Assembly (NCBI GenBank): GCA_045599445.1
Contig: JAZRWB010000027.1
Location: 1,344-65,343, forward strand
Source of the DNA: Kiritimatiellia bacterium
Lineage (GTDB): Bacteria > Verrucomicrobiota > Kiritimatiellia > RFP12 > UBA1067
Length of the DNA: 64,000 nucleotides
Direction: 5' to 3'
Below, one piece after another: positions 7,448 through 59,477 of the stretch. The notes beneath the pieces were generated by a model, which was not told the DNA's origin, did no database searches, and worked only from the letters and a program-made list of their open reading frames with translations. How positions within the stretch are numbered: position 1 is the first letter of the stretch; the number at the start of each line of letters is the position of its first letter. The position numbers were made by a program, and so were the translations under genes.

Positions 7448-7503
7448 AAGTGCATAACTCCTTTTATCCATAGTCATATACCTATGGCCTATATTACACT
7501 ATA

Positions 7504-7637: not shown

Positions 7638-7658
7638 ACCCTAAGCTAAGCGTTTGGC

Positions 7659-16171: not shown

Positions 16172-16659
16172 GATACCAGTTTCTCCGCTTCCTTGCGCAG
16201 CTCCTTCGGGGAGCCGTTGTTTTCGATTACGTAGTGGGATTTTTTCGCCTTGTCGGCTACGGGCATTTGCGCCTTAAGCCGCGCTTCGGCTTCCTCGCGG
16301 CTATAACCGCGACCGTTCATCATCCGTTCGAGTTGCTTCTCCCGATCGGAGACGACAGCGCATATTATATCATATTCGCCCTGCCAACCGACTTCAAAAA
16401 GTAGCGGAATGACGTGCAGCTTCTCCGGCTCCGCCTTAAGCCGCGCTTTAACGAGCGGATGGATTCGCGCCTCCAGCTCGCGGCGAGCGACGGGATTCTT
16501 GAAGACCGTTTCCCGCAATTTCGCGCGCTCTTCCTCGCCGATAAGCTCGTGAACGACGTCATCCGCGTCGAGCGTGGCGACGCCGAGTTCGTTCAAGTAT
16601 TGACAAAGGAGGGATTTGCCGCAGGCAATCCCTCCCGTGAGACAGATTCTTTTCATCAA
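16153..16659 (-). CDS. coaE: Dephospho-CoA kinase
   Basis: [13 protein letters not shown]-loop and [10 protein letters not shown] in a 168-aa protein. It overlaps the rho start by 19 nt. Confidence 0.88.
16364..16372 (-). promoter_or_regulatory. Intragenic extended -10 box TGATATAAT inside coaE, candidate rho promoter
   Basis: The minus strand reads TGATATAAT (16372..16364). It is encoded by coaE codons TAT GAT ATA ATA (YDII), 192 nt upstream of the rho ATG. Confidence 0.4.
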
Positions 16660-16662
16660 AGG

Positions 16663-19761: not shown

Positions 19762-19783
19762 CTACTCCTTATTTTCAAGCACA

Positions 19784-19812
19784 ATTATACTCTTTATTGT
19801 TTCGTTATTCAA
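19784..19812 (-). promoter_or_regulatory. Sigma70-type promoter for the secretin gene (-35 TTGAAT, 17 nt spacer, -10 TATAAT)
   Basis: The minus strand reads TTGAAT (19812..19807), then 17 nt, then TATAAT (19789..19784). The -35 is built from the upstream gene's last codons and stop (CTT GAA TAA). There are 22 nt between the -10 box and GTG 19761. Confidence 0.6.
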
Positions 19813-21834: not shown

Positions 21835-23435
21835 TTGAACTTCACCTCCACCGTAAACTGTTCGAGTTCGCCGCCCTTGCCGAGCCGCACCTGTTCGACG
21901 ATCTTGATGCTCGTCGGATCGATCGCGGACTTGCCCTTGAGCTTCTCGACCACCGTCTCGGAAACGGTCTTGCCGTTCGCGCCCTTGACGCGATCGCTCC
22001 ACGAACGAATCGTGATCCGACCGTCATTCGACCACTTTTCGATCCACATCCCCGGCAAAAGCGCTTCCCGAACCGCGTTGAGCCGCTGCACCGTCGCCGA
22101 ACGCGAGAGCATCAGATCCTTGAGCGCCGTCGCCTCGGACTTGGCCGCGTCGAGCTCCTTGGCGGCCGCGGTGATTTCGCGATCGACCGCGCTCAAGGCG
22201 CTCACCGTCGTCGCCACCGCGTCGCGCTGCGCGGCGATGGTCGTCGCCTCGCGATGGTAGGTCATCATTACCGCGACAAGCGCAAGCGCCATCATCGCGC
22301 CGCCGGCGACGAGATACGGGATGCGGGCGCGCTCGGCGCGATCCGCGACGATTGACGGCGGCAGGAGATTGATTGCGAAGCGCGCCACTCCCGCCACGTG
22401 CAAGGCGATGCCAACCGTCGAGGCGATGATGGGGCTCGCATTTTCGAGCTCGGAAACGTCGAGCGCTCCGAAAGCCGTTTTTTCGAAAGGATTGAGGTAT
22501 TCGACTTCGATGCCCAGCGATTCGGCGAAGAACCGGTCGATTTGCGGCAGGAGGGCGCTACCACCGGTAAGATAGAGCTTGACCGGGGCGTTGCCGTGCT
22601 GCTGGCTGCGATAGAAGTTAATCGATCGGGAAATCTCGGCGTGGAGCCGCGTCATCACCGCCCGGCACGCCTTGGAGACGCGATCGACGATTTCGTCGGC
22701 GTCCTCGGTAACGCCGCCCTCGGCGACGTAGCCCTTCTCGCGCTTCAAGGCCTCCGCCTCTTCGAGCGAACAGCCGAGCGCGCCGGAAATCTCCTTGGTG
22801 ATCGCATTGCCCGCGATCGGAATCGAACGGTTGTAGAGCTTGTCGCCCTCGACGACCACGAGCGAAGTCGTGCGCGCGCCGATATCGAGAACGATGGCGC
22901 ACGCCTCCGCCTCGTCGGGACGGTTGAACTTGAGCGCGTTGGTAATCGCGAGCGGCGAAACGTCCACGTAATCGGGGCTGAAGCCAAGTCCGGTCAACGC
23001 CGAGGTAATCGCCTCGATCTGGTCGACCTTGGCCGCGACGATCATCACCGACTTGTCGCCGTTCTCGGCGTCGCCGAGCACCTGCCGGTCGCAGACCATC
23101 TCGTCGATCGGGAAGGGAATGCCCTGCTCGATTTCGTAGCGAACGAGCTGCTCGAACTTCTCCGCGCCGCCGACCATCGGAATCGACGCGAACTTCGGAA
23201 ACGTCATCTGCCCCGAAATCGCGAGCGCGAGCTTGCCGGGCTTAAAGCCCTTCGCGCCGATGATTTCGCGCAAGGCGGGAGCGAGAATGGTTTCGACGTT
23301 ACCGCCGTCGAGCGGCGAGGCGAGTTCGGCGACACCGTATTTAAGGAGCTTTACCGCCCCTTTCGCGCCGAGCTCGTACTCCGCGAGCGCGACGTTCGCC
23401 GCGCCGATGTTGAGAGTCTGAATTGTCTTGGCCAT
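21831..23435 (-). CDS. PilM-like actin-fold pilus assembly protein fused to a PilN-like TM/coiled-coil segment (Amuc_1101-type)
   Basis: The N-terminal ~340 aa are PilM/FtsA-like (LNIGAANVALAEYEL, VMIVAAKVDQIEAITSAL, IVLDIGARTTSLVVV, LYLTGGSALLPQIDRFF). Next come FAINLLPPSIV and the TM segment IPYLVAGGAMMALALVAVMM (~22250-22400). A coiled-coil and beta region follows, as in PilN. Confidence 0.8.
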   Translation of the reverse strand: MAKTIQTLNIGAANVALAEYELGAKGAVKLLKYGVAELASPLDGGNVETILAPALREIIGAKGFKPGKLALAISGQMTFPKFASIPMVGGAEKFEQLVRYEIEQGIPFPIDEMVCDRQVLGDAENGDKSVMIVAAKVDQIEAITSALTGLGFSPDYVDVSPLAITNALKFNRPDEAEACAIVLDIGARTTSLVVVEGDKLYNRSIPIAGNAITKEISGALGCSLEEAEALKREKGYVAEGGVTEDADEIVDRVSKACRAVMTRLHAEISRSINFYRSQQHGNAPVKLYLTGGSALLPQIDRFFAESLGIEVEYLNPFEKTAFGALDVSELENASPIIASTVGIALHVAGVARFAINLLPPSIVADRAERARIPYLVAGGAMMALALVAVMMTYHREATTIAAQRDAVATTVSALSAVDREITAAAKELDAAKSEATALKDLMLSRSATVQRLNAVREALLPGMWIEKWSNDGRITIRSWSDRVKGANGKTVSETVVEKLKGKSAIDPTSIKIVEQVRLGKGGELEQFTVEVKFK

Positions 23436-23453
23436 GGTTTCTCCGAAATCAGT

Positions 23454-24152
23454 TTATTGGATCGTCGCCTCGTAGTCGTTCGGGCAAACGAGACCCCAAA
23501 TCGTCTTGGAGCGATCGACGAGTCCCTGACGGCGCTCGATCATGGGCTTGCCATCCTCGGTCTTGGCGTTCATGATTTGCGAGTCTTCCCAGAACTTGGT
23601 TCCCGTTTCGATACCCTTGATCTCGCTCCAGCAATCTCCGCCGAGAGTATCGCCCTTCTCGTTGGAAATTTCCAGACCCACCGCCTTGGGCTCGCCGTAG
23701 CGCTCCAAGTACGACGGCGGCAATACCACCGACGCGCCGTGGGTACCGGCCGGAATGTTGAAATAGGCAACGGTCGTCGTAAAGTAGCTGTAGGGCGAAA
23801 GACCTTCGCGATTGCCCTTGTTCTCCTTCGCGGTCTTGGTTTCCAGGAGGACGTGCCAAGTGAAAGTAAGCTGGTCGAGGAACCGTGACTCGTCGGTGCC
23901 GAATGTAGTGTACTTCGTCTTGAGAACAATCCACTGGCGCGGCTTCTTGAAGTACTCGTTGAGACCGTTGATGTTCGGCGCCATCGCGAGCGCGCCCTGG
24001 CCGAGCTGGACTTGTTCGACGAGAATCTTCGCCGCCTTGCCCGTGGTTTCCATTTCGTCGTTGCCCGCCATCGCCTTTTGCTTGCCGCGGGTCGCCGCCA
24101 ACGCCGTCACCGCCGCCATCGCCACCGTCGCAACTACCATCAACTGCTTCAT
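23454..24152 (-). CDS. Secreted protein, first gene of the pilus-like cluster (Amuc_1102 position), 232 aa
   Basis: Start ATG 24152 (MKQLMVVATVAMAAVTALAA signal peptide), preceded by GCGAGG. The longer track ORF (to 24707) is an Arg/Gly-rich artefact overlapping kpsF. The family call rests on synteny only. Confidence 0.6.
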   Translation of the reverse strand: MKQLMVVATVAMAAVTALAATRGKQKAMAGNDEMETTGKAAKILVEQVQLGQGALAMAPNINGLNEYFKKPRQWIVLKTKYTTFGTDESRFLDQLTFTWHVLLETKTAKENKGNREGLSPYSYFTTTVAYFNIPAGTHGASVVLPPSYLERYGEPKAVGLEISNEKGDTLGGDCWSEIKGIETGTKFWEDSQIMNAKTEDGKPMIERRQGLVDRSKTIWGLVCPNDYEATIQ

Positions 24153-24168
24153 TTTGTACCTCGCTTTC

Positions 24169-24177
24169 TTTATAACA
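24169..24177 (-). promoter_or_regulatory. Extended -10-like box TGTTATAAA for the pilus-like cluster, built from the last kpsF codons and stop
   Basis: The minus strand reads G-TGT-TAT-AAA (24177..24169). This overlaps the kpsF end ...GTG TTA TAA. It lies 16 nt upstream of ATG 24152. There is one mismatch to TATAAT. Confidence 0.4.
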
Positions 24178-25156
24178 CTTTCATCTTGGGCAGATCCTGG
24201 ATGTCCACCAACCCCACGACCTTGCCCGCGCGATCGCAGACCGGCAGGTCGTCGATGCGCTTCTTTTCGAAAATCTTCAACAGTTCCGCCGCGTAGGCGT
24301 CGTCGTAGACGAACGACGGCTTCTTCGTCATATAGTCCGCGATCTTCGCCGAGAGCGCCTGGTCGCCGCCGCCCTGCGACATCACGCGCCGGAAGTCGCC
24401 GTCGGTGAAAAAGCCCGCGAGCGCGCCCTGATCGTCGACGATCGCCGCCGCTCCGCCCTTCGCCGCCGTCATCGCCATCACCGTTTCCATCACCGTCGCG
24501 TCGGGCTTGACGAGCGCGAGCTTTTCGCCGGTGCGCATGATGTCGGAAACCTTCATCACCAACGCCCGGCCGATCGCGCCCGCCGGATGGTTCATCGCGT
24601 ACTCCTCGATCTTGAACTCCTGCGCGTCGATCATCACCATCGCGAGCGCGTCGCCCATCGCGAGCGTCGCGGTTACGGAATTCGTGGGCGCCATCCCGAA
24701 GGGACACGCCTCCTTGCCGCAGGGAATCTCGATGTGGATGTCGCTTAAGTTCGCAAGCGTCGACTTGGCGTTTCCGGTCATCGAAACGACCTTGAGCCCG
24801 TGGCGACGAATCGCCGGAATGAGCCGAATCACCTCGTCGCTCTCGCCGCTGAAGGAAAGCGCGATCAGAATGTCGCGTGAAGAGACCATCCCGAGGTCTC
24901 CGTGCATCGCCTGCACCGGATTGAGGACGATCGAGCGCGTGCCCGTGGAGGCGAAAATCGCGCTCATCTTCTCCGCGACGTGCAGATTCTTCCCGACGCC
25001 GGTAACGACGACGATACCGCCCGCTTCGAGCGCACCGCGCATCATCGCGATCGCCTTGACGAAACTCTCGCCGAGCGAATCGCGCGTCTTCTTCAGGCCT
25101 TCGATTTCGACGTCGAAGACCTCGCGAGCGCGCTGAAGCTGTCTTTCTTCGGTCAC
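24170..25156 (-). CDS. kpsF: Arabinose-5-phosphate isomerase (KpsF/GutQ; SIS plus tandem CBS domains)
   Basis: SIS motifs are VVVTGVGKNLHVAEKMSAIFASTG and ALSFSGESDEV. The C-terminal CBS pair includes IVDDQGALAGFFTDGDFRR and LPVCDRAGKVVGLVDIQD. GTG 25156 overlaps the pta stop as GTGA. Confidence 0.88.
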   Translation of the reverse strand: MTEERQLQRAREVFDVEIEGLKKTRDSLGESFVKAIAMMRGALEAGGIVVVTGVGKNLHVAEKMSAIFASTGTRSIVLNPVQAMHGDLGMVSSRDILIALSFSGESDEVIRLIPAIRRHGLKVVSMTGNAKSTLANLSDIHIEIPCGKEACPFGMAPTNSVTATLAMGDALAMVMIDAQEFKIEEYAMNHPAGAIGRALVMKVSDIMRTGEKLALVKPDATVMETVMAMTAAKGGAAAIVDDQGALAGFFTDGDFRRVMSQGGGDQALSAKIADYMTKKPSFVYDDAYAAELLKIFEKKRIDDLPVCDRAGKVVGLVDIQDLPKMKVL

Positions 25157-50637: not shown

Positions 50638-50646
50638 ATTATACCA
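50638..50646 (-). promoter_or_regulatory. Extended -10 box TGGTATAAT for the giant-protein unit
   Basis: The minus strand reads TGGTATAAT (50646..50638), 21 nt upstream of GTG 50616 and just downstream of the triple hairpin repeat. Confidence 0.6.
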
Positions 50647-50691: not shown

Positions 50692-50760
50692 TGACCCCTC
50701 GGGAGGGGTGGGCATGACCCCTCGGGAGGGGTAGGGCCGACCCCTCGGGAGGGGTAGGGC
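50692..50760. repeat. Three tandem ~23-bp GC-rich hairpin units (GACCCCTCGGGAGGGGTAGGGC)
   Basis: The units are TGACCCCTCGGGAGGGGTGGGCA, TGACCCCTCGGGAGGGGTAGGGCC and GACCCCTCGGGAGGGGTAGGGC. Each contains ACCCC-TCGGGA-GGGGT (5-7 bp stem). They lie in the largest intergenic gap of the window (281 bp), between the pseudopilin operon and the giant-protein unit. No U-tracts are present. Confidence 0.85.
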
Positions 50761-50897: not shown

Positions 50898-51830
50898 TCA
50901 GTTTTCCAACTTGTCGTACTTCGAGCCGTCGAAAGTTACGTCAAGCCCCTTGCAAAGCCACTCGGCGAGCTCTTCGGTATTATTACTGCCGTTCTCGTCG
51001 CTCTTGGGCTGGATGAGCCGCTCGACGTGTCCATCGGCGAAAACCACGTGCGCGCAACGCTTGTTGCCGATGAAATGGTTGAAAGCGAGCTTGTCGGCGC
51101 TTCCCCCGAGGTCGGACAAACCACGGTACTGGAAAATCGAATCCGCCCCATTTTCGGTTTCGTCCAGTTCCGCCATCTTGCCCTCGTCGGCAAGAAATTT
51201 CAATTCAGCGAACAAAAGCCGCCGATCCGCCCGATTAAGCGACGAATACAACGTGCCGTAGTAATGCTCGTCAAAGGTCTTACCCTTCTTCGCGACATCG
51301 CCGCCGAAACTGGCGTTCATCGCGTAACTCCAGCGCGGAACCTTATTGAATTTTTGCGCCACCTTTTTGTGCGATGGGCAAATGTACACGTCGAAATTCT
51401 GCGCAACATACTTCCACAATACGCCATTGGTGAGGCAATAGAGTCCCTCGTCATCCCGCTGTCCGTCGTTGTCCGCATAAGCCGACGTGAACCAACTGCC
51501 GCTGGCGACAGATGAAGTCGGCTTCGAAGCGTATGCACCGTCGGAATACCAGGAAATCCATCCTCGACGTTCGAAATACACCCGCTTGCTATTGCCGATT
51601 CCCTGCGACTCGTCCAATGAATACGATTGCAAGGACGCCGCCAACGGAAGATACTGATTGGCCATACCGTAACTTTGACATGCACTCGCGAGATTGCGCA
51701 TATTGGCGAGACATTTCGCGGCACGAGCGGATTCGGTAGTACCGCTGAGCGCCCCCAACAAAACCGCAATCAAGATTCCCAGAATGCCGATGACGACCAG
51801 CATCTCCACCAATGTAAACGCCTTTTTCAC
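50898..51830 (-). CDS. Prepilin-type N-terminal cleavage/methylation domain protein, DUF1559/H-X9-DG-like pseudopilin (310 aa)
   Basis: GTG 51830 gives (M)KKAFTLVEMLVVIGILGILIAVLL. ESARAAKCLANMRNLASACQSY is the DUF1559-type helix. The C-terminal NHFIGNKRCAHVVFADGHVERL resembles the H-X9-DG motif, but here with 13 residues between H and DG. GGGAG lies upstream as a likely RBS. Confidence 0.8.
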   Translation of the reverse strand: MKKAFTLVEMLVVIGILGILIAVLLGALSGTTESARAAKCLANMRNLASACQSYGMANQYLPLAASLQSYSLDESQGIGNSKRVYFERRGWISWYSDGAYASKPTSSVASGSWFTSAYADNDGQRDDEGLYCLTNGVLWKYVAQNFDVYICPSHKKVAQKFNKVPRWSYAMNASFGGDVAKKGKTFDEHYYGTLYSSLNRADRRLLFAELKFLADEGKMAELDETENGADSIFQYRGLSDLGGSADKLAFNHFIGNKRCAHVVFADGHVERLIQPKSDENGSNNTEELAEWLCKGLDVTFDGSKYDKLEN

Positions 51831-51843
51831 TTTCCGGCTCCCG

Positions 51844-54798
51844 TTAATCGAATTGATGATAGAAAAGAACTCGCATACGATGATTGCCCGGCGCATTAGT
51901 CCAGCGCGGATCGCGCCAAACGAGCGCCACCGCGCGCGAACTCAGCTGCGGCGGAATTTGCCCAACCGCCCCACCTCCCATCATCATCGGCTCGGCGCGC
52001 ACGAAAATCAAAAAGAGCTGTTGCTTCACCGCAAAGCATTCGCGCCAAAATCCGTAAAGGAACTTGCGATCGACCTCGTCCAATTTATCGGTCTTGTCGG
52101 AAAGTTCGACTCCGCAAAATTCCTTCTCGCCGCCGGCGGAGCTTCCGCTCCAATCCAACGAATCGTATGCCTTCTCGAAGATGCTTTGAGCACCTTCGCC
52201 ACCATGTTCGCGGGCGGTAGAATTGAGACGATTCCGAAGCTCCATCGCGACTTCGCGCAAATCGTCCCACGCGAATCTGGCCTTGGAATTCGCTTCGCTG
52301 AACGCATAACTTTTATTGAAGGAGTCAGCCGTTTCCGGAATATTCGCCTCCGCCGCCAAATTAGTGGAAGCGACGCTCCAATCATAAGGCGTATTGGCGA
52401 AGGCCGGCATCAGTCCATCGGCCGTAGGCGCAAAAGGATTGAGCCGATAATCTCCCTGCCCGGCAATTAGCCCAAGCCCTTCGAACGAATCGCGGGTAAC
52501 ACCGCTACGCGGATAGCAATTATAGGTCTTCCACATAAGCGAACCGTTGAGGCAATCGCCGATGGAGGATGGGTAGTCCGCCCGATAGTCGGACGCGATA
52601 TCGCAAGACCCGGACATGAAGCTCGCGTTATTATTGAAGTTCCCGCTGATACGCGGCAAAAACGCGAGTTCGTAAACCGACTGCAGCTGCTCGCGATTGG
52701 AGACGAACATGAAGATATCGCGATCGCGACCGCCACCCAAAACCCCGTGCACCGCGTCAAGCCACGTCGACTTGCTCGCATCGGAACAGGTCATCCAATT
52801 CTCCGGCGCATGATTGTAGCGCGGATCCAAACAAATCAAATTCGTCGGCATAAAAGCCATCGCCTTGGGCTCTGCATCGATGGCGGCGATGTTAAAAAGA
52901 TCGGCCGCATCCGCCTTGAAGCGCAGAATCGGACACGCATCGCCTACAACCTTCCGGGCAAAGGGATCGCCCGACGACAACCCATCCGCACCCGCCGGGA
53001 CCTGATCCACCGCGTCCGCGCCTTCCTTAACGCGAATGAACGCCGCGGCGTAGAGGTTGACCGACGGCAACGTTCCGTTCTTGAATCCGGCCAAGAAGGA
53101 CTTGTCATCGCCAAACTCCTCAGACGCCATCTTAAGCGGGCTTTCGCCGTCGGCGACAAGCGGCGGCAAATTGCAATGCGCCGCGACAATCTCGCCGCTT
53201 TCCGGGTCGTCGGAGGATTTATAACGACGGGTAATGGTGAAAAGCGTCTTGGGTTGCAGCGAGCCGATGCCGTTTAACCGCATCGGCGAACAATCCATTA
53301 CCACGTCCGCTTCCCTTGTCTTGTTGGCGAAATCCGCGTCGATTGCGCCGGGGCAGCCGATGGTAATTATCCCGTTATCGGCGTAAGTCGCTCCCTGCTC
53401 AAAGTCACCGTCAACCGGCGCAAGCAGATCGCCGCCCCGAAGCCGCACGTCGGCGGAAGTGCAAAGGAAAAGCTTTACGCACGCTTCGGCCGAGAAATTG
53501 CGCCCGGAGAGATCGACGCGCTTGAAGGGAAATACCACCGTCGGGCGCAGCGTGCTCTTGCCGAGCTCAGCGCCAAGCTGAGCGATATCGAGACGATATT
53601 CGAAATCCTGCAGACGATAGTTTTCCTCTTCACCGGCGGGCCGCGGATCGCCGACAGGGCTGCCAACGAGCTTAAGCGAAGTCTTAATGTCGGTCTTAAC
53701 TCCAACGATCATCGGAACCTGTTCGACGGTCGGCACCGCCAACGACACGGGAACGTGATCGCGGTCGAGATAATCGTACAGGCAACAATAATCCATAACC
53801 GAAAGCTCGTTCTTGAACTCGCCTTGCCAAGCGTCGATGCAATCGGAAATCTTCGCGTGCCCACTGCCGCTGAATTGAAAGGGTTGACCATCGGCGGTGT
53901 TGAGATTCAATAACTCCTCCCCTTCCGTCGTCTCGCCGACAATATCTAAAGGCAAGTAACTATCGGTGATGAAGTTCATCATTCGCAGGGTTTCGGCACG
54001 GGCGTCGCTTCTATCGGTCGAAGAAATGCCGTAGAAGTTGTCGCCGCTTTTTAGATATTGGCAAAACGGACTGTTGACCTCGCCAAATTTTCTCTCGCCC
54101 ATAGCAAGATTCCAGTCCGCCAGCGAAACGAGCGGTATCTTCTCCTCGGTTATCGCCTGTTTGCCACCCTCGTCGTCTTCTGCCAGGTCCTCGCGGAAGT
54201 CCTCCATGAACGCATCCCATTTGTCCGCTCCCGTAGAGGAGGAGCCGCTCGCGCCGTGCTTCTCAAACACATGCGATAGCGTAAGCTTGCGATTGCCGAA
54301 ATTGCGTCGGCTGTCGGCCTTAAGCCGGTTGATGTCGAGGCAATGCGAAACGTCAATCGCGGTAAAGGCGAAGCGCCCGGCATCGAAGCTGAATTTCTCC
54401 CATTTAGCCGAAGACGACAGACGGGAGAATCGCCGTGCCTCGTTGACCAGCGGCGGCGGAATGTAGGCGAGTCCTTCAAGCGTCAGCGTGGACACGGTTT
54501 CCGTCGGCGAAACGAGCCGCGAACCCACGTACACTCCGTTCGTCCAGTTGTTGCCGTTCGCGTTATCCGGCACTCCGGGATGCGGATTGTTGCCGATAGC
54601 GCCGTCGATTCGCTGCATTGCCTCGGCAAGCGCGGCCTTGGCAAGTTGACGCGAAAGCGAAGTGCGGCGAAGATAGCTCGATGGCAAGCGCGAAGAGCGC
54701 AAATAAGCGGAAAGCCCAACGGCGGAAATCACCATAAAAGCGAGCATTCCGAGAACGATCAGGAGGGCGCTACCCTTTCTCGAAGACATCGCGCTCAT
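51844..54798 (-). CDS. GspK-like minor pseudopilin, greatly enlarged (984 aa)
   Basis: The N-terminus SRKGSALLIVLGMLAFMVISAVGLSAY matches the GspK-type pattern (R/K-G-x-A-L-L-x-V-L and no Glu5). The remaining ~940 aa I cannot assign. There is a 1-nt TAATG overlap with the upstream gene. Confidence 0.65.
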   Translation of the reverse strand: MSAMSSRKGSALLIVLGMLAFMVISAVGLSAYLRSSRLPSSYLRRTSLSRQLAKAALAEAMQRIDGAIGNNPHPGVPDNANGNNWTNGVYVGSRLVSPTETVSTLTLEGLAYIPPPLVNEARRFSRLSSSAKWEKFSFDAGRFAFTAIDVSHCLDINRLKADSRRNFGNRKLTLSHVFEKHGASGSSSTGADKWDAFMEDFREDLAEDDEGGKQAITEEKIPLVSLADWNLAMGERKFGEVNSPFCQYLKSGDNFYGISSTDRSDARAETLRMMNFITDSYLPLDIVGETTEGEELLNLNTADGQPFQFSGSGHAKISDCIDAWQGEFKNELSVMDYCCLYDYLDRDHVPVSLAVPTVEQVPMIVGVKTDIKTSLKLVGSPVGDPRPAGEEENYRLQDFEYRLDIAQLGAELGKSTLRPTVVFPFKRVDLSGRNFSAEACVKLFLCTSADVRLRGGDLLAPVDGDFEQGATYADNGIITIGCPGAIDADFANKTREADVVMDCSPMRLNGIGSLQPKTLFTITRRYKSSDDPESGEIVAAHCNLPPLVADGESPLKMASEEFGDDKSFLAGFKNGTLPSVNLYAAAFIRVKEGADAVDQVPAGADGLSSGDPFARKVVGDACPILRFKADAADLFNIAAIDAEPKAMAFMPTNLICLDPRYNHAPENWMTCSDASKSTWLDAVHGVLGGGRDRDIFMFVSNREQLQSVYELAFLPRISGNFNNNASFMSGSCDIASDYRADYPSSIGDCLNGSLMWKTYNCYPRSGVTRDSFEGLGLIAGQGDYRLNPFAPTADGLMPAFANTPYDWSVASTNLAAEANIPETADSFNKSYAFSEANSKARFAWDDLREVAMELRNRLNSTAREHGGEGAQSIFEKAYDSLDWSGSSAGGEKEFCGVELSDKTDKLDEVDRKFLYGFWRECFAVKQQLFLIFVRAEPMMMGGGAVGQIPPQLSSRAVALVWRDPRWTNAPGNHRMRVLFYHQFD

Positions 54799-55256
54799 TA
54801 GTTACGCTCCTCGATGGTGAGCCGATTGAAGTTCGGTATACAACAGCCGCTGACGTATTTCCACTTGTCCGGCGACGGCACCTTGCCGGATTTGATCGTA
54901 ACCCGGTAAGGGTGGCCCCACGGATCGAGAATCTCCCCGCTACCGCTTAACGAGGCGTTGAACAAAACCGGAATATCCGCCGCAGCGTCGCCGCCGCTGG
55001 CATGACCGAGGATGAACCCGAGCGAATCCTCGCCGGCCGGCTGATCGTCCATATCCTCGGGAAGCTCGTAATCCCCGCCGCGGGCGAAATTCTCGTAGGC
55101 GAGAATCGCGTTCGTCATTTCCTTCACCTCGGCGGTCGCCTTTTCGATTCGCGCCCGCTTCTGAGCCCCGATTACCGAGGTGCTGACCGAAGCGGTGAGA
55201 ATCATGATCATCGCGATCACGACCACCAACTCGACCAAAGTAAACGCCTTTTTCAT
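54798..55256 (-). CDS. GspG-like pseudopilin (152 aa)
   Basis: ATG 55256 (ATGA overlap) gives MKKAFTLVELVVVIAMIMIL. KRARIEKATAEVKEMTNAILAYE and LDPWGHPYRV are typical of T2SS major pseudopilin G. Confidence 0.8.
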   Translation of the reverse strand: MKKAFTLVELVVVIAMIMILTASVSTSVIGAQKRARIEKATAEVKEMTNAILAYENFARGGDYELPEDMDDQPAGEDSLGFILGHASGGDAAADIPVLFNASLSGSGEILDPWGHPYRVTIKSGKVPSPDKWKYVSGCCIPNFNRLTIEERN

Positions 55257-55747
55257 TGCAAACTTTCGCTTTCCGGCCAAGTGGTGATATCGTCGTAGGT
55301 GTCCGCTTCGCCGTCAGGGCCCCACGATGTCACTCCAACGGTGTAGCTCTTGACGGAACGGGCGCCACCCTCGTTGCCGACCGCCTGGTTCGCCATCTGC
55401 TGGATATCAATGCTGCTGTTAAACCTCGCCATCTCGCTCGATTCGCCGGAAGTCGGGGAATTCGCCCCTTTGGCGGCGTTACCTACACATGCCCGAGTAC
55501 GCAAAACACCATTTTCATCCCAAAGCCCGGTTACGAGACCGACTTCGTTGCCGTGAAAAAACACATTGTCCGCGCCCTTTTGCAACGACGCAATGTTACC
55601 ACGGGTAACGTCCATGTCGACAACGCCCGCGACACCAGTGCGCCAGGCGATCGACGACTGGTTGAAAATCATAGTGAGAATCGTCACCAGCATCCCCAGC
55701 AGAAGCGATGCCACCAGAAGCTCGAGAATGGTAAAGCCCCGCTTCAT
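55253..55747 (-). CDS. Pseudopilin (164 aa; GspJ/PilW-like N-terminus)
   Basis: MKRGFTILELLVASLLLGMLVTILTMIF is a prepilin-type N-terminal methylation motif with Glu5. Confidence 0.75.
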   Translation of the reverse strand: MKRGFTILELLVASLLLGMLVTILTMIFNQSSIAWRTGVAGVVDMDVTRGNIASLQKGADNVFFHGNEVGLVTGLWDENGVLRTRACVGNAAKGANSPTSGESSEMARFNSSIDIQQMANQAVGNEGGARSVKSYTVGVTSWGPDGEADTYDDITTWPESESLQ

Positions 55748-56271
55748 TTGTTCGGGTCTCCTTGGAAGCGCACTTCGGTGTAGTAAATCGGCATCGCCAA
55801 AAGCAAGCTGGTTTTGGCGGTCGCTCGAAAAGCCAACTTGGCAATCGGCGAATCCTTCTCGCGAATCAGCACGACTCCGAAATCCATGCCGGAAGCCCCG
55901 GCGGCCCCGTTTAACGTACCCAAGACCGTACTGACCGGATAACCGACGCGATTCAACTCATCAAGCGCCGACTTCGCCACGGACGTAATGTCGTTTTTTA
56001 CCATCCCCGTGGATTCGTTCAGATAATCGGCCCATCCGCGAGCGGGCGTGGTTTTGAGCGCGTTAAACTTCGACCACGCCAAGTCCTTGTCTCCGCAGGC
56101 CATGATAAACGGCCCCAAGACGGCATCGGCGAGCGCCGAACCCGCGACATCTTCACGGCTTTGAGTGTTTTCGCGGAAGCCAAGCGAATAAAGGGAAACC
56201 ATCGCAAGCACTCCTCCCGCCATGATCATCATGGCGAGCGTGACTTCAATTAACGTAAACGCCTTTTTCAT
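55744..56271 (-). CDS. Pseudopilin (175 aa; GspI/PilV-like N-terminus)
   Basis: MKKAFTLIEVTLAMMIMAGGVLAMVSLY is a prepilin-type motif with Glu5. Confidence 0.75.
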   Translation of the reverse strand: MKKAFTLIEVTLAMMIMAGGVLAMVSLYSLGFRENTQSREDVAGSALADAVLGPFIMACGDKDLAWSKFNALKTTPARGWADYLNESTGMVKNDITSVAKSALDELNRVGYPVSTVLGTLNGAAGASGMDFGVVLIREKDSPIAKLAFRATAKTSLLLAMPIYYTEVRFQGDPNK

Positions 56272-56274
56272 CGC

Positions 56275-57096
56275 TTAATTCGATTGACTCGCCGTCGGAT
56301 TCTCGGTCGTGCCCACCTTGCTGGCCGTCAAATCCCCACCGCTACCCTGCCGCAAGGCGTAGATTCCGATGGTGGAGCCGCCTGCGCCGCCATCGCTGGA
56401 AAACACCATCGTGCTTTCCCCCTTGATTGGATCGGTGACGCTAGTCGAAAAACTGCTACCGAAAATATAGCCCTTGGGTAAGGTCAATCGCTGAAACTCC
56501 ATACCGTACTGGTCGCCGCCTTTCCATTCACCCGCACTACCGTCCAAACAGACGAAGCCGTATTGTTCGGGGATGAAATGGTCGTCGGCCGCGCCAAGTC
56601 CTTGCTCGGAGACGTTCAATAGCGAATATTCCGCGTCACCGGACTTTTTGACCAATTCGCTAATTCGACTGTATTTAAGCTCGTTTTGCGAAAGGCGATA
56701 TAGACGCATGCCACGCTCCTTTTTGTTGGATTCCGCGCCCTCCGCCATCGTATCGTAGGAGTTGCTCAAATCGGAAAATTCGTCGTACAGCGTATCGCCC
56801 TGGACGCGCGAGATTCTGCCGGTCATACGCACGGCGATTGCCTGCCCGACCACCACTTCGCGTTCCGTATCGTTGCCGCGCAAAGTTTCGTTGTAGAAAT
56901 AAATCGCCGTCGGCCGACGCTCGATGAGCGCACGTTCGTAAACCGCGTGGATGAATTGACTCGCCACTTGCACGGCCGAACGCTCCTCCATTCCGCGGTT
57001 AATCGCCCGATACGCACCGACCGAAATCGTCCCCAAAAGGCCCATGATGCCAATCACGACCAATAGCTCGACTAAGGTAAATCCGCGCGTTTTCAT
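56275..57096 (-). CDS. Pseudopilin (273 aa; GspH/FimT-like N-terminus)
   Basis: MKTRGFTLVELLVVIGIMGLLGTISVGAY is followed by ERSAVQVASQFIHAVYERALIERRPTAIYF. Confidence 0.75.
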   Translation of the reverse strand: MKTRGFTLVELLVVIGIMGLLGTISVGAYRAINRGMEERSAVQVASQFIHAVYERALIERRPTAIYFYNETLRGNDTEREVVVGQAIAVRMTGRISRVQGDTLYDEFSDLSNSYDTMAEGAESNKKERGMRLYRLSQNELKYSRISELVKKSGDAEYSLLNVSEQGLGAADDHFIPEQYGFVCLDGSAGEWKGGDQYGMEFQRLTLPKGYIFGSSFSTSVTDPIKGESTMVFSSDGGAGGSTIGIYALRQGSGGDLTASKVGTTENPTASQSN

Positions 57097-57662
57097 TTGG
57101 TAACCGACATGTGATCGGTGGGAACGGAGTAGATTAACTTGAAGCGGCGAAAATAGCCGTGCTCCGGCTCGGGATAACCGAACACCATTTCATTGATGCG
57201 GTTCAACTTCTTGGGCGACGACTTGGAACCGTGAATCGCCGTGTGCATATCCATACCCGTGGTCTTGTCGCCGATGGACCCGGCGCGCGCCACAAAAAGA
57301 CTCATAACGTCCAGCAGCGGACTGGTATTGCCGTCCACCGATTTGCGCACCACATCGCGAATGCAATCGTCGGTCTCCGAAGTCGTGAGCTGATAACGGT
57401 CGGGATCAGTTTGGTTATTAGCGCCAATCACGTTACCGCCCTGTTGCACATTTTCCGGATCAAATCCGCCAGGCCACTGGTTGTATTGCGCGTAATAGGT
57501 CATGATGCCCGCTTGAACGGTTCTCACCAATGCATCCGCGCGGTTGATTCTAGCTTGCTTGATAGCACCGGTGGCGGCGGTAATTACAATCGTCAGAAGT
57601 ACGGCGAGAATGCCGACCACCATCATCAACTCCACAATGGTAAAACCGCGCCGTTTCATCAT
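57093..57662 (-). CDS. Pseudopilin (189 aa; GspG-like)
   Basis: ATG 57662 (ATGA overlap) gives MMKRRGFTIVELMMVVGILAVLLTIV. The longer track ORF (to 57932) is an Arg-rich extension overlapping the upstream gene. Confidence 0.8.
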   Translation of the reverse strand: MMKRRGFTIVELMMVVGILAVLLTIVITAATGAIKQARINRADALVRTVQAGIMTYYAQYNQWPGGFDPENVQQGGNVIGANNQTDPDRYQLTTSETDDCIRDVVRKSVDGNTSPLLDVMSLFVARAGSIGDKTTGMDMHTAIHGSKSSPKKLNRINEMVFGYPEPEHGYFRRFKLIYSVPTDHMSVTK

Positions 57663-58252
57663 TTGGCCCTTCGCGCCTGTCCGGCGCCCCAACTGTAAAC
57701 GTCGTCTTTGCGAGCGCCGATCGAATACGCTTCGAGTTTGCCGTCCTTGCCGGCGCACCAAACGATCGCCGAAGCGCGAACCTTCACGCTTTCGCCGCCG
57801 ACATCGGCCTCGACGATGCCATCGCCGTCCATATCCACCGCATAATGGACGATGTGATCGAAATCCGTCCCTCGATAAACATCGCCCAAAGAAGCGCTCG
57901 CGCCTTTGCGCTTGACAACGGCCGCGCCCCACGGATCAAGGATTCCCAAACGATCAAGGCCAATCAATCGATCCTGTTCGCGATTATAATTTAGCGGAAA
58001 ATAATTGCCGCGGGCGAGCGGTAGCGCATTCTGCGCGTCCAACACCCCTTGCTCCTCCATACCCTTAGGCCAAAATCCCTCTCGCTGATACATGGACGAG
58101 AGCGCCGTCGCCACGTTGTGCACAAGTTCCTGCGCCTTGGCCTTGTCGGCGGTTTTGGTCATTTTGGAATATGCCGCCATCGACGCCGCCATCAAAATAG
58201 CGATAATCCCGATTACGATCAGCATTTCAATCAAAGTAAAACCGCGTTTCAT
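57659..58252 (-). CDS. Pseudopilin (197 aa; GspG-like, candidate major subunit)
   Basis: MKRGFTLIEMLIVIGIIAILMAASMAAYSKMTKTADKAKAQELV, with a C-terminal ...WCAGKDGK pilin-like end. Confidence 0.8.
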   Translation of the reverse strand: MKRGFTLIEMLIVIGIIAILMAASMAAYSKMTKTADKAKAQELVHNVATALSSMYQREGFWPKGMEEQGVLDAQNALPLARGNYFPLNYNREQDRLIGLDRLGILDPWGAAVVKRKGASASLGDVYRGTDFDHIVHYAVDMDGDGIVEADVGGESVKVRASAIVWCAGKDGKLEAYSIGARKDDVYSWGAGQARRAK

Positions 58253-58265
58253 GGCATCCTCCGAA

Positions 58266-59438
58266 TCAATTGCTCATACTGGTGATGTCGTCCTCAATCC
58301 AAAGCCCGATTAGCGGATTTGCCCTGTCACCCATACTTTCGCGAGGAATCCAAGGCGGAAAAGTCCGTCCGTTGGGACCGGCCGACCACAACACGTATCC
58401 CTGATGCGGTGAAGGCGAATAATAGTAAAATTGGTTGCCCCAGCCATCGCGCACCGTGACCTTATCCAGCACATATTGCTGACTGTGCGAACCGCCACCG
58501 CCCGGCGTATAGACATCGATGCCGAAATTGTCATTGCGTAAATTCTTGTCGTAGTAATCTCCGGAGGTAATGTTGATTCCGAACAGCGTCCAGGAATGCT
58601 CGCACGATACCATACCCTCGAGATTGGGCATCCACCGAGCCGTTACCGCCTGAGTGGGAATGTTAATCACCCGCGCAAGATCCGAGCGGTTTTTGCCGGA
58701 ATTGATCACACTGTTATGCAATTCGCTCCAGCCGAAATTGTTGCCGTTGAACGGATCGCTGGGCGCATCGTTATTGTCGGTCCACTGCCTATATTTGGTG
58801 TAAAACGACTCATCGCCGTTCATCATTACGAGATAGCGCGGCAGCAAATAGCTCATAAGCCCGAACTTGAAGAGCTGCAACTTGCGCCAATCCACTTCGT
58901 TGGTATAGGGGTTGAACCGACCGATGCTACTGCCATTGCCCACGCCGTCGTCGAACCCGGCCTCCAACTTCGCCTTGGTATCCTCGCTCAAGTCGCTACT
59001 GTCGGAGGCCTTGATCTTGAGCTCGTCGCTAATTCGCTCAATTCTTTCCTTCCAGCCGCTGGGAAACGGAAAACACGCTTCGACCGGCTGGGACCGGCAC
59101 GCCGCACTGACTTGCTGCCAGGCTCTCAACTCTTCTTGGTCGCCGATTTTCTTCCACCCCCAGATCTCGTCGTTTACCTCGTCATTCTGATTTTGCACAT
59201 CTTGCGACTCGGCAACGGCATAAATGTCGCGCGTACCATGTACTTTGACTGGAGGATAGTTGCCGAACGCGGCATAATATCCAGATAGACAATTTTCCAG
59301 CCGTTGCATACGATTAATGGTGGTGGCGCGACGTTTGACGTCATCGCCGACCGTTCCCAGACGAACGACCATCGTCATCAAAGTTACGAGAACGACGACG
59401 ACAATCAGAAGCTCGACGAGCGTGAAGCCCTTTTTCAT
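58266..59438 (-). CDS. Large pseudopilin (390 aa), first gene of the operon
   Basis: ATG 59438 gives MKKGFTLVELLIVVVVLVTLMTMVV. The C-terminus ...YYYSPSPHQGYVLWSAGPNG is pilin-like. The longer track ORF start (59477) lies inside the predicted promoter. Confidence 0.8.
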   Translation of the reverse strand: MKKGFTLVELLIVVVVLVTLMTMVVRLGTVGDDVKRRATTINRMQRLENCLSGYYAAFGNYPPVKVHGTRDIYAVAESQDVQNQNDEVNDEIWGWKKIGDQEELRAWQQVSAACRSQPVEACFPFPSGWKERIERISDELKIKASDSSDLSEDTKAKLEAGFDDGVGNGSSIGRFNPYTNEVDWRKLQLFKFGLMSYLLPRYLVMMNGDESFYTKYRQWTDNNDAPSDPFNGNNFGWSELHNSVINSGKNRSDLARVINIPTQAVTARWMPNLEGMVSCEHSWTLFGINITSGDYYDKNLRNDNFGIDVYTPGGGGSHSQQYVLDKVTVRDGWGNQFYYYSPSPHQGYVLWSAGPNGRTFPPWIPRESMGDRANPLIGLWIEDDITSMSN

Positions 59439-59447
59439 ATATCCTAA

Positions 59448-59477
59448 ATTATACCACAACCGCGCCCGCGAGGGCAA
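59448..59477 (-). promoter_or_regulatory. Promoter of the pseudopilin operon (-35 TTGCCC, 18 nt spacer, extended -10 TGGTATAAT)
   Basis: The minus strand reads TTGCCC (59477..59472), then 18 nt ending in TG-G, then TATAAT (59453..59448). Only 9 nt (TTAGGATAT) separate the -10 box from ATG 59438. Confidence 0.6.

What the first reader, a model, noticed from the sequence alone, without database searches (positions are those of the whole stretch)
50898..59477. Nine-gene pseudopilin operon with outsized members and no motor, platform or peptidase gene in 64 kb
Seen: eight ORFs start with M-K-(K/R/T)-(G/A/R)-F-T-(L/I)-(V/I/L)-E followed by a hydrophobic helix. This is the prepilin cleavage/methylation motif with Glu5. 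A ninth ORF starts KGSALLIVLGMLAF (GspK-type, no Glu5). Junctions are ATGA or TAATG overlaps or short gaps (3-13 nt), and one promoter lies at 59477..59448. Unusual features: the GspK-like protein is 984 aa, whereas canonical GspK is roughly a third of that (established knowledge). The first pseudopilin is 390 aa. At least three GspG-like paralogues are present. The last gene is a DUF1559-type protein whose H-X9-DG motif is stretched to H-X13-DG. No GspE/PilB, GspF/PilC, GspO/PilD, GspC, GspL or GspM is visible anywhere in the window.
Basis: partly seen in the sequence, partly recalled or inferred. Interest (0 to 1): 0.7.

Follow-up and report, generated by a model that had tools for sequence, protein, structure and literature searches.

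The report
Conserved pilus-subunit operon with giant tip protein
This is a real nine-gene operon, conserved across gut and rumen Kiritimatiellia, that encodes the filament subunits of a secretion- or pilus-type machine, including a ~1000-residue tip subunit; it is not an orphan, because other parts of such a machine lie elsewhere in the same window and next to the operon in relatives.

Summary
The sequence observation holds. Eight ORFs carry a G/A|F-T-x-x-E prepilin N-terminus, a motif found nowhere else in the window. A ninth ORF of 984 aa has a GspK-type N-terminus without Glu5. All nine are tightly packed behind one promoter.

The operon is not an artefact. g1 to g8 are collinear in about 78 species-level Kiritimatiellia genomes. 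The 984-aa protein has more than 1100 cluster representatives; the 150 best listed are mostly ~950-1190 aa. The 390-aa first gene has more than 1250 homologues of about 390 aa.

The window holds no ATPase, GspF or prepilin peptidase. It is homologous to and syntenic with the Akkermansia Amuc_1098-1102 (MUL2) "type IV pili" locus. In 52 of 66 informative relatives gspF sits directly upstream of the operon.

Best reading: this is the filament module of a dispersed type IV filament (T2SS-like) machine. The giant subunit has conserved ends and a variable middle, and is probably the tip cap or adhesin.

The globular domains match no known family. The link to the MUL2-like cluster, and the choice between secretion and glycan capture, are inferred. 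I rate it a new variant of a known kind, of moderate interest.

The parts
59448..59477 (-). Extended -10 promoter (TTGCCC-N18-TATAAT with upstream TG). It ends 9 nt before the g1 ATG, so the mRNA is nearly leaderless.
   Evidence: TGGTATAAT occurs 4 times in the window against 0.13 expected, each just upstream of a minus-strand gene start. The motif is conserved in L003.
58266..59438 (-). g1, 390 aa. A GspG-type prepilin with an insertion of roughly 250 aa (largely helical over residues 101-273) between the N-terminal helix and the C-terminal beta-sheet.
   Evidence: Pfam N_methyl and T2SSG at residues 318-358, 23.7 bits against a cutoff of 21. hhalign to E. coli GspG over 61 columns, 95.7%. 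More than 1251 homologues of about 390 aa at 50-66% identity. AF2 pLDDT 88. No PDB fold match.
57659..58252 (-). g2, 197 aa. A GspG-like pseudopilin, similar to GspG across the globular domain as well as the helix.
   Evidence: hhalign residues 1-112 against GspG 6-107, 96.9%, E 1.5e-10, including the DPWG motif. N_methyl 32.5 bits.
57093..57662 (-). g3, 189 aa. A prepilin with a GspG-like N-terminal helix and a globular part that could not be assigned.
   Evidence: Orthologue median length is 191 aa.
56275..57096 (-). g4, 273 aa. A prepilin, weakly GspH/XpsH-like.
   Evidence: hhalign residues 3-69 against GspH 4-71, 94%. NCBIfam XpsH and GspH hits are below threshold.
55744..56271 (-). g5, 175 aa. 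A prepilin, weakly PilV/GspI-class; assigned the I-like role mainly by position.
   Evidence: NCBIfam PilV 26.2 bits against a cutoff of 52.2. Conserved FTLMEVNLAI N-terminus.
55253..55747 (-). g6, 164 aa. A prepilin with a GspJ-like N-terminus.
   Evidence: hhalign to GspJ 93% over 33 columns. The N-terminus FTILELLVASLLLGMLVTILTM is almost invariant.
54798..55259 (-). g7, 153 aa. A GspG-like pseudopilin, similar to GspG across the globular domain as well as the helix.
   Evidence: hhalign residues 3-126 against GspG 7-114, 96.9%. Pfam T2SSG is below threshold.
51844..54798 (-). g8, 984 aa. A GspK/PilK-class tip subunit without Glu5. A conserved N-terminal helix plus strand (1-160) and three conserved C-terminal strands (906-984) flank a variable region of about 750 aa that includes a beta-rich domain at 361-655.
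   Evidence: No Pfam family. No PDB sequence or fold match.
50898..51827 (-). g9, 309 aa. A DUF1559-type prepilin with an H-X13-DG C-terminal motif.
   Evidence: Present after g8 in 68 of 80 loci.
50695..50754 (-). Three tandem 23-nt units, each containing the hairpin CCCCTC-CC-GAGGGG, between g9 and the next promoter. Probably the operon terminator.
   Evidence: 3 hits against 0.01 expected, found only here.
16663..24200 (-). Assembly and outer-membrane cluster homologous to Akkermansia Amuc_1102-1101-1100-1099-1098 (MUL2 plus secretin). Members: Amuc_1102-like 23454-24200, PilM-N fusion 21831-23435, Amuc_1100-like 20896-21834, Amuc_1099-like 19805-20899, secretin 16663-19761. Its membership of the same machine as the operon is inferred, not shown.
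   Evidence: Followed by coaE and rho, as in Akkermansiaceae (PMC13174399).

Best explanation
The nine genes form one transcription unit that encodes the filament subunits of a type IV filament machine of T2SS lineage, native to Kiritimatiellia.

Eight products are class-III-signal (prepilin) proteins. A prepilin peptidase encoded elsewhere would cut them after the G/A at position -1. They would then be extracted from the inner membrane and polymerised on a GspF platform by a GspE/PilB-type ATPase, both also encoded elsewhere.

Proposed roles:
- g2 and g7 (and g1, g3, g9) are GspG-type shaft subunits.
- g4, g5 and g6 take the H/I/J-type minor-pilin roles.
- g8 is the Glu5-less K-type subunit that sits at the very tip and starts assembly.

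The pilin core of g8 is split. The N-terminal helix and first strand, and the last three strands including the extreme C-terminus, are highly conserved. About 750 variable residues lie between them. I read g8 as a cis version of a PilK-plus-tip-adhesin pair, comparable to CpaL in Tad pili, presenting a large variable head at the filament tip.

The filament would pass through the Amuc_1098-type secretin, and be aligned by the PilM-N/Amuc_1100/1099-type proteins, encoded 27 kb away in the same window.

Shown: the motifs, operon structure, conservation, synteny, partial homologies, and absence or presence of genes in the window.

Inferred: processing, polymerisation, tip position, partnership with the MUL2-like cluster, and the biological output (protein secretion and/or glycan capture).
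For: - Motif specificity: 8 of 8 motif hits in the window lie in the operon.
- Operon structure: overlapping or near-abutting junctions, one conserved extended -10 promoter, and a hairpin array at the 3' end.
- Synteny: g1-g8 are collinear in essentially all 78 related genome loci.
- Platform linkage: gspF is adjacent in 52 of 66 informative loci and abuts g1 by a 1-nt overlap in L001. That protein scores GspF 383.9 and PilC 376 bits.
- Pilin homologies: GspG, GspH and GspJ similarities. PDB pilin and GspG matches cover the helix.
- g8: GspK-type N-terminus. AF2 topology is helix 10-68, strand 141-149, and strands 927-937, 954-962 and 975-983, with pTM 0.80. Its ends are conserved (0.74 and 0.80) and its middle is variable (0.41). 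Invariant residues include H973, R976, L978 and Y980 near the C-terminus.
- Assembly cluster: the PilM/secretin cluster lies in the window.
- Precedent: PMC13533445 describes K-type subunits that supply the last beta-strand in cis and large tip proteins such as CpaL and MshQ.
Against: - No globular domain of g3-g6 or g8 shows detectable sequence homology to GspH, GspI, GspJ or GspK. The assignments rest on N-terminal helices and gene order.
- Foldseek found no significant PDB match for the g8 or g1 models.
- I could not inspect model coordinates, so the split pilin core of g8 is read from secondary structure only.
- No ATPase or peptidase could be shown for this genome, because the contig ends.
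- The operon and the MUL2-like cluster are not linked in relatives within +/-10 kb. The genome could hold a second secretin and assembly set.
- g7 lies between the J-like and K-like genes, unlike the canonical I-J-K order.
Confidence: 0.72

Rival explanations
1. This is a classical T2SS pseudopilus only. The operon serves a separate GspD/E/L/M set encoded elsewhere, forms a short periplasmic piston that expels Sec-exported enzymes, and has nothing to do with the Amuc_1098-1102-like cluster in the window.
For: - GspG-type subunits with the DPWG motif.
- A Pfam T2SSG hit in g1.
- Adjacent gspF in relatives, whose best NCBIfam hit is GspF.
- A GspK-type N-terminus on g8.
- Kiritimatiella is reported to have a T2SS and many exported sulfatases (PMC5148204).
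- The operon and the PilM/secretin cluster are unlinked in relatives.
Against: - All GspG, GspH, GspI, GspJ and GspK equivalog scores are far below their cutoffs.
- Nine pilin genes are present instead of five.
- A 110-kDa tip is hard to reconcile with a purely periplasmic piston.
- No GspC, GspL or GspM homologue was detected in any of 80 loci.
- The only secretin seen scores highest as an Amuc_1098-type 'type IV pilus' secretin.
Confidence: 0.3
2. This is an extended, surface-exposed type IV-like pilus used for attachment to and capture of polysaccharide (mucin or sulfated glycans). g8 is the glycan-binding tip adhesin, and the Amuc_1098-1102 (MUL2)-type apparatus is its assembly machine.
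For: - The MUL2-like cluster lies in the same window with the same coaE-rho synteny as in Akkermansiaceae.
- Published data describe MUL2 as a type IV-like pilus needed for mucin or fucoidan uptake (PMC13174399; PMC12418764).
- PilM scores above its NCBIfam cutoff, 149.5 against 133.
- g8 has a variable beta-rich middle domain flanked by conserved docking ends, as expected of a tip adhesin.
- Large tip proteins are known in T4P, MSHA and Tad systems.
Against: - No retraction ATPase or pilus ATPase was seen.
- No significant lectin or adhesin fold match was found; the best Foldseek E is 0.04 with TM below 0.1.
- The subunits look GspG-like rather than T4a-pilin-like.
- Linkage to MUL2 rests on co-residence in one contig.
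- Akkermansia papers name Amuc_1102, not prepilins, as the pilin-like component.
Confidence: 0.3
3. The operon is a decaying or orphan remnant, or an assembly artefact: the 984-aa ORF is two genes fused, and the operon is non-functional without neighbouring machinery.
For: No ATPase, GspF or peptidase in 64 kb. The sequence comes from a MAG contig.
Against: - Full-length g8 homologues of about 950-1190 aa occur in hundreds of independent assemblies.
- g1-g8 are collinear across about 78 species, at 30-66% identity and with conserved motifs.
- Reading frames are intact and a conserved promoter is present.
Confidence: 0.02

Closest known systems
Canonical T2SS pseudopilin block gspG-H-I-J-K (E. 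coli K-12, Klebsiella Pul, Vibrio Eps)
   Same: - Prepilin N-termini with Glu5.
- GspG-type subunits.
- A last, Glu5-less K-type subunit with a G|(V/S)ALLIVL N-terminus.
- Position immediately downstream of gspF in most relatives.
- Overlapping genes.
   Different: - Nine genes rather than five.
- Several GspG paralogues, one of 390 aa.
- The K-type protein is three times longer and lacks the GspK domains PF21687 and PF03934.
- All equivalog scores are below their cutoffs.
- gspC, D, E, L, M and O are not linked.
T4aP/MSHA minor-pilin plus tip-adhesin operons (fimU-pilVWXY1E; mshDOPQ), and Tad CpaL/TadG (PMC13533445)
   Same: - A set of minor pilins followed by a very large tip protein and then another pilin, as g9 follows g8 here.
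- CpaL (~600 aa) has an N-terminal pilin-like domain, a dispensable middle and an essential extreme C-terminal beta-strand supplied in cis. The predicted layout of g8 is the same.
   Different: - No PilY1, vWA or beta-propeller domain was detected.
- In g8 the large domain is in the same polypeptide as the K-type helix, whereas PilX and PilY1 are separate proteins.
- There is no sequence similarity to these proteins.
Akkermansia muciniphila Amuc_1098-1102 'type IV pili'/MUL2 locus (PMC5332112, PMC13174399)
   Same: The window holds homologues of all five genes in the same order, followed by coaE and rho as in Akkermansiaceae. This gives the operon a plausible assembly and secretin partner.
   Different: - The finding itself (the prepilin operon) is not part of the described MUL2 locus.
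- Only the Amuc_1099 family score passes its cutoff; the others are distant.
- The organism is a Kiritimatiellia, not a Verrucomicrobiales.
DUF1559 / H-X9-DG prepilin-like proteins of Planctomycetes-Verrucomicrobia, and the Verru_Chthon cassette (TIGR02596-02600)
   Same: - g9 has the prepilin N-terminus, a DUF1559-like region and a C-terminal H...DG motif.
- Several proteins give weak N-terminal hits to cassette proteins B, C and D.
   Different: - The g9 motif is H-X13/14-DG, and both models score just below threshold.
- Cassette hits cover only the N-terminal helix.
- g8 gives no hit to any Verru_Chthon cassette family.

Membership tests
Prepilin-type (class III signal) proteins, PF07963 / TIGR02532 | Short basic leader, G/A at -1, F at +1, E at +5, followed by a hydrophobic helix | tested here: met
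   Met by 8 of 9 proteins. Pfam N_methyl is at or above cutoff for g1-g4, g6, g7 and g9, and below it for g5 at 16.8 bits. TIGR02532 is above its 16.3 cutoff for all of these except g7, which scores 15.6. The motif is unique to the operon.
T2SS major pseudopilin GspG (TIGR01710 / PF08334) | Score above the curated cutoff; GspG globular domain | tested here: inconclusive
   TIGR01710 scores are 28.6-38.8 bits against a cutoff of 88.85 for g1, g2, g3, g7 and g9. PF08334 scores 23.7 against 21 for g1 only. hhalign covers about 100 of 145 GspG positions for g2 and g7, with probability 96.9%.
T2SS minor pseudopilins GspH, GspI, GspJ (TIGR01708, TIGR01707, TIGR01711) | Score above the curated cutoff | tested here: not met
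   All scores are below cutoff. hhalign similarity is confined to the N-terminal 20-65 residues. PDB profile searches match pilins only over the helix.
GspK (NF037980; Pfam PF21687 T2SSK_1st and PF03934 T2SSK) | GspK globular/alpha domains; N-terminus lacking Glu5 | tested here: not met
   The N-terminus lacks Glu5 and aligns to GspK: 18.3 bits against a cutoff of 130, and hhalign over 63 columns at E 5e-5. No PF21687 or PF03934 hit in any of 40 family members. g8 therefore works like a K-type subunit but is not a member of the GspK family.
T4P tip adhesins PilY1/PilC, MshQ, CpaL | PilY1 beta-propeller or vWA domain; C-terminal beta-strand completing the K-type pilin sheet | tested here: inconclusive
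   No Pfam domain at all. The AF2 model ends in a conserved beta-strand at 975-983. The quaternary fit could not be tested because no multimer tool was available.
DUF1559 / H-X9-DG (PF07596, TIGR04294) | Scores above cutoff; H-X9-DG near the C-terminus | tested here: not met
   PF07596 scores 23.2 against 23.3, and TIGR04294 scores 14.1 against 19. Spacing is X13 or X14 in most orthologues. g9 is a borderline relative.
Complete T2SS or T4aP locus | Linked ATPase (PF00437), platform (PF00482) and prepilin peptidase (PF01478) | tested here: not met
   None is present in the window. The platform gene is adjacent in 52 of 66 relatives. The ATPase is seen in 1 of 80 loci, and the peptidase in none.
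Akkermansia Amuc_1098-1102 / MUL2 cluster (NF042912, NF042425, NF038287, NF045709, NF042424) | Five families in order, followed by coaE and rho | tested here: inconclusive
   All five families are the best or only hits, in the right order. Scores against cutoffs: Amuc_1099 90.5/50, passes; Amuc_1098 428/750; Amuc_1101 382.6/650; Amuc_1100 43.5/180; Amuc_1102 23.5/55. The coaE and rho synteny is met.
Verru_Chthon cassette (TIGR02596/8/9, TIGR02600) | Scores above cutoff for proteins A-D | tested here: not met
   Only N-terminal hits of 12.7-26 bits, against cutoffs of 51-256. g8 gives no hit to any Verru_Chthon cassette family.

The most novel reading that the evidence does not exclude
The operon encodes the so far undefined filament of the Amuc_1098-1102 (MUL2)-type pilus machine found in Verrucomicrobiota and Kiritimatiellia. 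g8 is a single-chain fusion of the K-type initiator pilin with a variable glycan-binding head. The filament would then be a polysaccharide-harpooning, retractable tip device feeding 'selfish' periplasmic glycan uptake, rather than a secretion piston.
Probability: 0.2. Interest if true: 0.75.

Novelty: new variant of a known kind. Interest (0 to 1): 0.45.

Why it matters
Type IV filament machines are well understood in Proteobacteria and Firmicutes but hardly at all in the PVC group.

In that group, the Akkermansia Amuc_1098-1102 locus has attracted much biomedical interest: Amuc_1100 has probiotic effects, and the MUL2 locus is implicated in mucin uptake. Yet the papers read here name no prepilin subunits for that machine.

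A conserved prepilin operon that sits with gspF in most Kiritimatiellia, and on the same contig as a MUL2-like cluster here, is a concrete candidate for those missing subunits. It also adds a ~1000-residue family with no annotated domains to the short list of giant tip subunits (PilY1, MshQ, CpaL). This makes the 'terminal beta-strand in cis' model testable in a distant lineage.

If the operon is only a divergent T2SS pseudopilus, the value is more modest. It would improve annotation of a widespread family of gut and rumen bacteria and show how far pseudopilins can be elaborated.

Tried and rejected
- PDB sequence search with the g8 family profile gave no hit at E<=1.
- Foldseek of the g8 model against PDB gave nothing below E 0.04, with TM below 0.1. 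The lectin and beta-galactosidase hits are not significant and were not used.
- Foldseek of the g1 model gave nothing.
- A Pfam scan of 40 g8 homologues gave only noise.
- hhalign of g8 against single E. coli GspK and against a 32-sequence GspK profile matched only the N-terminal helix.
- PDB profile searches for g1-g4 matched only the helix.
- Looking up the window's own g8 for a longer contig found nothing on record. Cluster look-up gave no names or accessions.
- Literature:
  - No paper combines Kiritimatiell* with pseudopilin, and none mentions Verru_Chthon.
  - The K. glycovorans paper only names a T2SS, and no supplementary files for it are held as text.
  - Davey 2023 and Hughes 2025 are not held.
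- Sequencing-fusion and orphan-remnant readings were rejected on conservation.
- Chance occurrence of the motifs was rejected.
- The idea that gspC-F lie just off the window was rejected from contig length and upstream gene content.

Full report
**What is in the sequence**

On the minus strand between 59438 and 50898 there are nine consecutive ORFs:
- g1, 58266-59438, 390 aa
- g2, 57659-58252, 197 aa
- g3, 57093-57662, 189 aa
- g4, 56275-57096, 273 aa
- g5, 55744-56271, 175 aa
- g6, 55253-55747, 164 aa
- g7, 54798-55259, 153 aa
- g8, 51844-54798, 984 aa
- g9, 50898-51827, 309 aa

The starts of g1, g2, g4, g5, g6 and g8 agree with the gene calls held in the public protein collection.

A six-frame scan for [GAS]F[TS][LIVM][LIVMT]E[LIVMT] finds eight hits in the 64 kb. 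All eight are at the N-termini of g1-g7 and g9, so the motifs are not chance. Pfam N_methyl is at or above its gathering score in seven of the eight.

g8 begins MSAMSSRKG|SALLIVLGMLAF, with no Glu at +5.

Junctions are +13, -4, -4, +3, -4, -7, -1 and +16 nt.

**Operon boundaries**

It is more than a consensus match for three reasons.
- Its extended -10 box TGGTATAAT occurs four times in the window against 0.13 expected.
- All four copies are on the minus strand, 9-32 nt upstream of a gene start: the 2167-aa gene, recA, the 792-aa gene and g1.
- The closest relative (L003) has TGTGGTATAAT followed by 9 nt and the g1 ATG.

The -10 box ends only 9 nt before the g1 ATG, so the transcript is nearly leaderless.

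Downstream of g9 lie three tandem 23-nt units, each with the hairpin CCCCTC-CC-GAGGGG. They are found nowhere else in the window. A second TGGTATAAT promoter then serves the next gene. The nine genes therefore form their own transcription unit.

**Not an artefact, and not rare**

g8 has 872 homologues at E<=1e-3 in the 90%-clustered collection, and nearly all of the 120 best listed cover essentially the whole protein at about 950-1090 aa. An exhaustive HMMER search of 1.84 billion cluster representatives gives 1145 hits, 435 of them at E<=1e-30. Most of the best 150 are 950-1190 aa; a few are shorter or partial.

A scan of one genome per species found 112 loci. Almost all are MAGs labelled Kiritimatiellia, Kiritimatiellae, 'Verrucomicrobia' or 'Lentisphaerae', from rumen, gut and faeces.

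In the 80 loci fetched, g1-g8 are collinear at nearly fixed spacing, and g9 follows in 68. The fusion-by-sequencing-error idea is therefore refuted.

g1 has more than 1251 homologues of about 390 aa at 50-66% identity. It is the best-conserved member.

The source contig is 65,365 bp, so the window is nearly the whole contig.

**What each protein resembles**

Profile comparisons with the E. coli K-12 Gsp proteins give the following.
- g2 and g7 align to GspG over 101-104 of 145 positions (probability 96.9%). The g2 alignment includes the DPWG motif.
- g1, g3 and g9 align to GspG over the whole N-terminal helix (61-64 columns).
- g1 also has a Pfam T2SSG hit at residues 318-358.
- g4 aligns to GspH over 65 columns.
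- g6 aligns to the GspJ N-terminus (93%).
- g5 gives only a weak PilV/GspI-type signal.

All NCBIfam equivalog scores for GspG, H, I, J and K are far below their cutoffs. PDB profile searches for g1-g4 match pilins, geopilin and GspG only over the first ~30-90 residues.

The H/I/J assignments rest on weak N-terminal similarity plus gene order.

g9 has a borderline DUF1559 hit, 23.2 against 23.3 bits. Its H-X13-DG motif is conserved (X13 or X14) in most orthologues.

**The 984-aa protein (g8)**

- Its N-terminus matches GspK: NCBIfam residues 8-65, E 1.3e-3. hhalign gives 48% identity to E. coli GspK over 21 residues. hhalign to a 32-sequence GspK profile covers 63 columns at E 5e-5.
- Nothing else matches. 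There is no Pfam family in any of 40 members, no PDB sequence hit and no significant Foldseek hit.
- The AF2 model is confident (pLDDT 79.5, pTM 0.80).
- The model shows helices 10-35 and 41-68 and a strand at 141-149. A helical region follows, then a beta-rich domain at about 361-655 and a mixed region. It ends in a helix at 908-921 and three strands at 927-937, 954-962 and 975-983, the last at the very C-terminus.
- Column conservation is 0.74 for residues 1-160 and 0.80 for 906-984, but only 0.41 for 361-655.
- Invariant residues cluster at both ends, including H973, R976, L978 and Y980.

This is the pattern expected of a pilin core split by a large, fast-evolving exposed insertion. It matches the published idea that K-type subunits (GspK, and CpaL in Tad pili) supply a terminal beta-strand in cis. 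In T4aP and MSHA systems, that strand is instead donated by a separate giant tip protein such as PilY1/PilC or MshQ (PMC13533445).

I could not inspect coordinates or run multimer models, so the tip role is inferred.

**The 390-aa protein (g1)**

The AF2 model (pLDDT 88, pTM 0.84) has the following layout:
- a 52-residue N-terminal helix;
- a mostly helical insertion at about 101-273;
- three strands at 325-352, which is the T2SSG-matching part;
- a C-terminal helix.

There is no PDB fold match. I read it as a GspG-type subunit with a lineage-specific insertion.

**The rest of the machine**

Every plausible ORF in the window was scanned. There is no T2SSE, T2SSF or Peptidase_A24. E. coli GspE, GspF and GspO find nothing in the window.

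However, the window does contain, at 16.6-24.2 kb on the same strand:
- a signal-peptide protein at 23454-24200;
- a 534-aa PilM plus transmembrane plus periplasmic fusion at 21831-23435, with the architecture of GspL or of PilM plus PilN;
- two single-pass proteins at 20896-21834 and 19805-20899;
- a 1032-aa secretin at 16663-19761.

NCBIfam identifies these five, in order, as the Amuc_1102, Amuc_1101, Amuc_1100, Amuc_1099 and Amuc_1098 families. Only Amuc_1099 passes its cutoff. PilM also passes TIGR01175. The secretin scores 428 bits on Amuc_1098, 143 on GspD and 125 on PilQ.

The cluster is followed by coaE and rho. The same flanking genes (secretion channel protein, dephospho-CoA kinase, rho) are drawn for the MUL2 locus of Akkermansiaceae (PMC13174399).

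That locus is described as follows in the papers read:
- a 'type IV pili' gene cluster whose products are abundant envelope proteins (PMC5332112; PMC10688800);
- a locus that mediates transport and processing of mucin in A. muciniphila (PMC13174399), with MUL genes needed for accumulation of mucin products inside the cell (PMC12418764).

None of the papers I could read names prepilin subunits for it.

**Relatives**

In 52 of 66 loci with enough upstream sequence, a GspF/PilC-type platform gene lies immediately upstream of g1. In L001 its stop overlaps the g1 start.

Fourteen loci lack it, including the closest relative L003. The window and L003 share radical-SAM, AAA_14/DUF4143, then g1.

A GspE-like fragment appears in only one locus, and GspO in none. 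The lineage therefore keeps its type IV filament genes dispersed. The absence of a motor and a peptidase near the operon is normal here, not a sign of an orphan.

The gene after g9 varies. It is either a signal-peptide protein of 650-1000 aa or a LuxR-type response regulator.

In the window the operon is followed by three Sec-signal proteins of 792, 2800 and 4037 aa. Relatives of the 2800-aa protein follow the operon in L079 and L074. Whether these are cargo is speculation.

**Mechanism**

Most likely (0.72), the operon supplies all filament subunits of a T2SS-lineage type IV filament. The proposed steps are:
- A prepilin peptidase processes eight subunits.
- An I/J-like pair (g5, g6) plus the K-type g8 form the initiation and tip complex.
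- GspG-type subunits (g2, g7, g1, g3, g9) extend beneath it on GspF, driven by an ATPase.
- The filament works through a secretin.

I consider the Amuc_1098-type cluster in the window the probable partner, but this is inferred from co-residence and from the lack of any other candidate in view.

Two outputs cannot be separated with the present data: protein secretion by a short pseudopilus, and glycan capture by an exposed pilus with g8 as adhesin. The size and variability of the g8 middle region lean towards an exposed, ligand-binding tip.

**Comparison and novelty**

It works like a GspG-K block and like minor-pilin plus tip-adhesin operons. By the curated thresholds, however, it is not a member of the GspH, I, J or K families, and g8 and the g1 insertion have no annotated family.

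My searches found no description of this operon.

I rate it a new variant of a known kind. Interest is moderate (0.45). The 'missing machinery' puzzle dissolves, but the giant K-type subunit and the possible tie to the MUL2/Amuc_1100 system are worth following.

Noticed in passing
window 14702-24200 (- strand): A full homologue of the Akkermansia Amuc_1102-1101-1100-1099-1098 (MUL2 / 'type IV pili') locus, followed by coaE and rho, the same synteny as published for Akkermansiaceae. The published survey (PMC13174399) looked within Verrucomicrobiota orders; this window shows the locus in a Kiritimatiellia MAG.
   Followed up: partly
window 7504-7512, 11957-11965, 50638-50646, 59448-59456 (- strand): The extended -10 box TGGTATAAT occurs four times against 0.13 expected. 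Each copy lies 9-32 nt upstream of a gene start: the 2167-aa gene, recA, the 792-aa gene and g1. This is probably the organism's strong promoter type. The g1 copy implies a nearly leaderless mRNA.
   Followed up: partly
window 50695-50754 (- strand): Three tandem 23-nt repeats, each with the hairpin CCCCTC-CC-GAGGGG, found only in this intergenic region. Possibly a terminator or a REP-like element.
   Followed up: partly
window 27335-50616 and 974-7477 (- strand): Four very large Sec-signal proteins of 792, 2800 (Gly_rich_2), 4037 (LamG plus TSP3 repeats) and 2167 aa. Three of them lie directly downstream of the operon. Relatives of the 2800-aa protein also follow the operon in L079 and L074. 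They may be surface adhesins or cargo.
   Followed up: partly
window 59523-60698 (- strand); L003 4155-5303: An AAA_14/DUF4143 ATPase gene sits between a conserved radical-SAM gene and g1, both in the window and in the closest relative. Most relatives have gspF at that position, which suggests a rearrangement in this sub-clade.
   Followed up: partly
L010, L011, L013-L017, L021, L023, L024, L027, L035, L037 (just after g9): In one clade of relatives, a ~199-aa LuxR/NarL-type response regulator (IVDDHPMVREGL...) directly follows g9. It may regulate the operon.
   Followed up: no
L011 22720-23193: The only GspE-like (N-terminal domain) tblastn hit in any of the 80 loci, about 9.5 kb downstream of g8 at the end of the locus.
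   Followed up: no
window 1-978 (-), 8349-8717 (+): A Fic/DUF4172 protein runs off the left end of the window. A 23S rRNA intervening-sequence-family protein lies on the plus strand.
   Followed up: no
window 1-8000 and 34000-62000 versus 10000-34000: G+C is 0.50-0.58 in the regions holding the giant-protein genes and the pseudopilin operon. It is 0.59-0.63 across the housekeeping and MUL2-like region and the 5' half of the 4037-aa gene. The cause is unknown.
   Followed up: no
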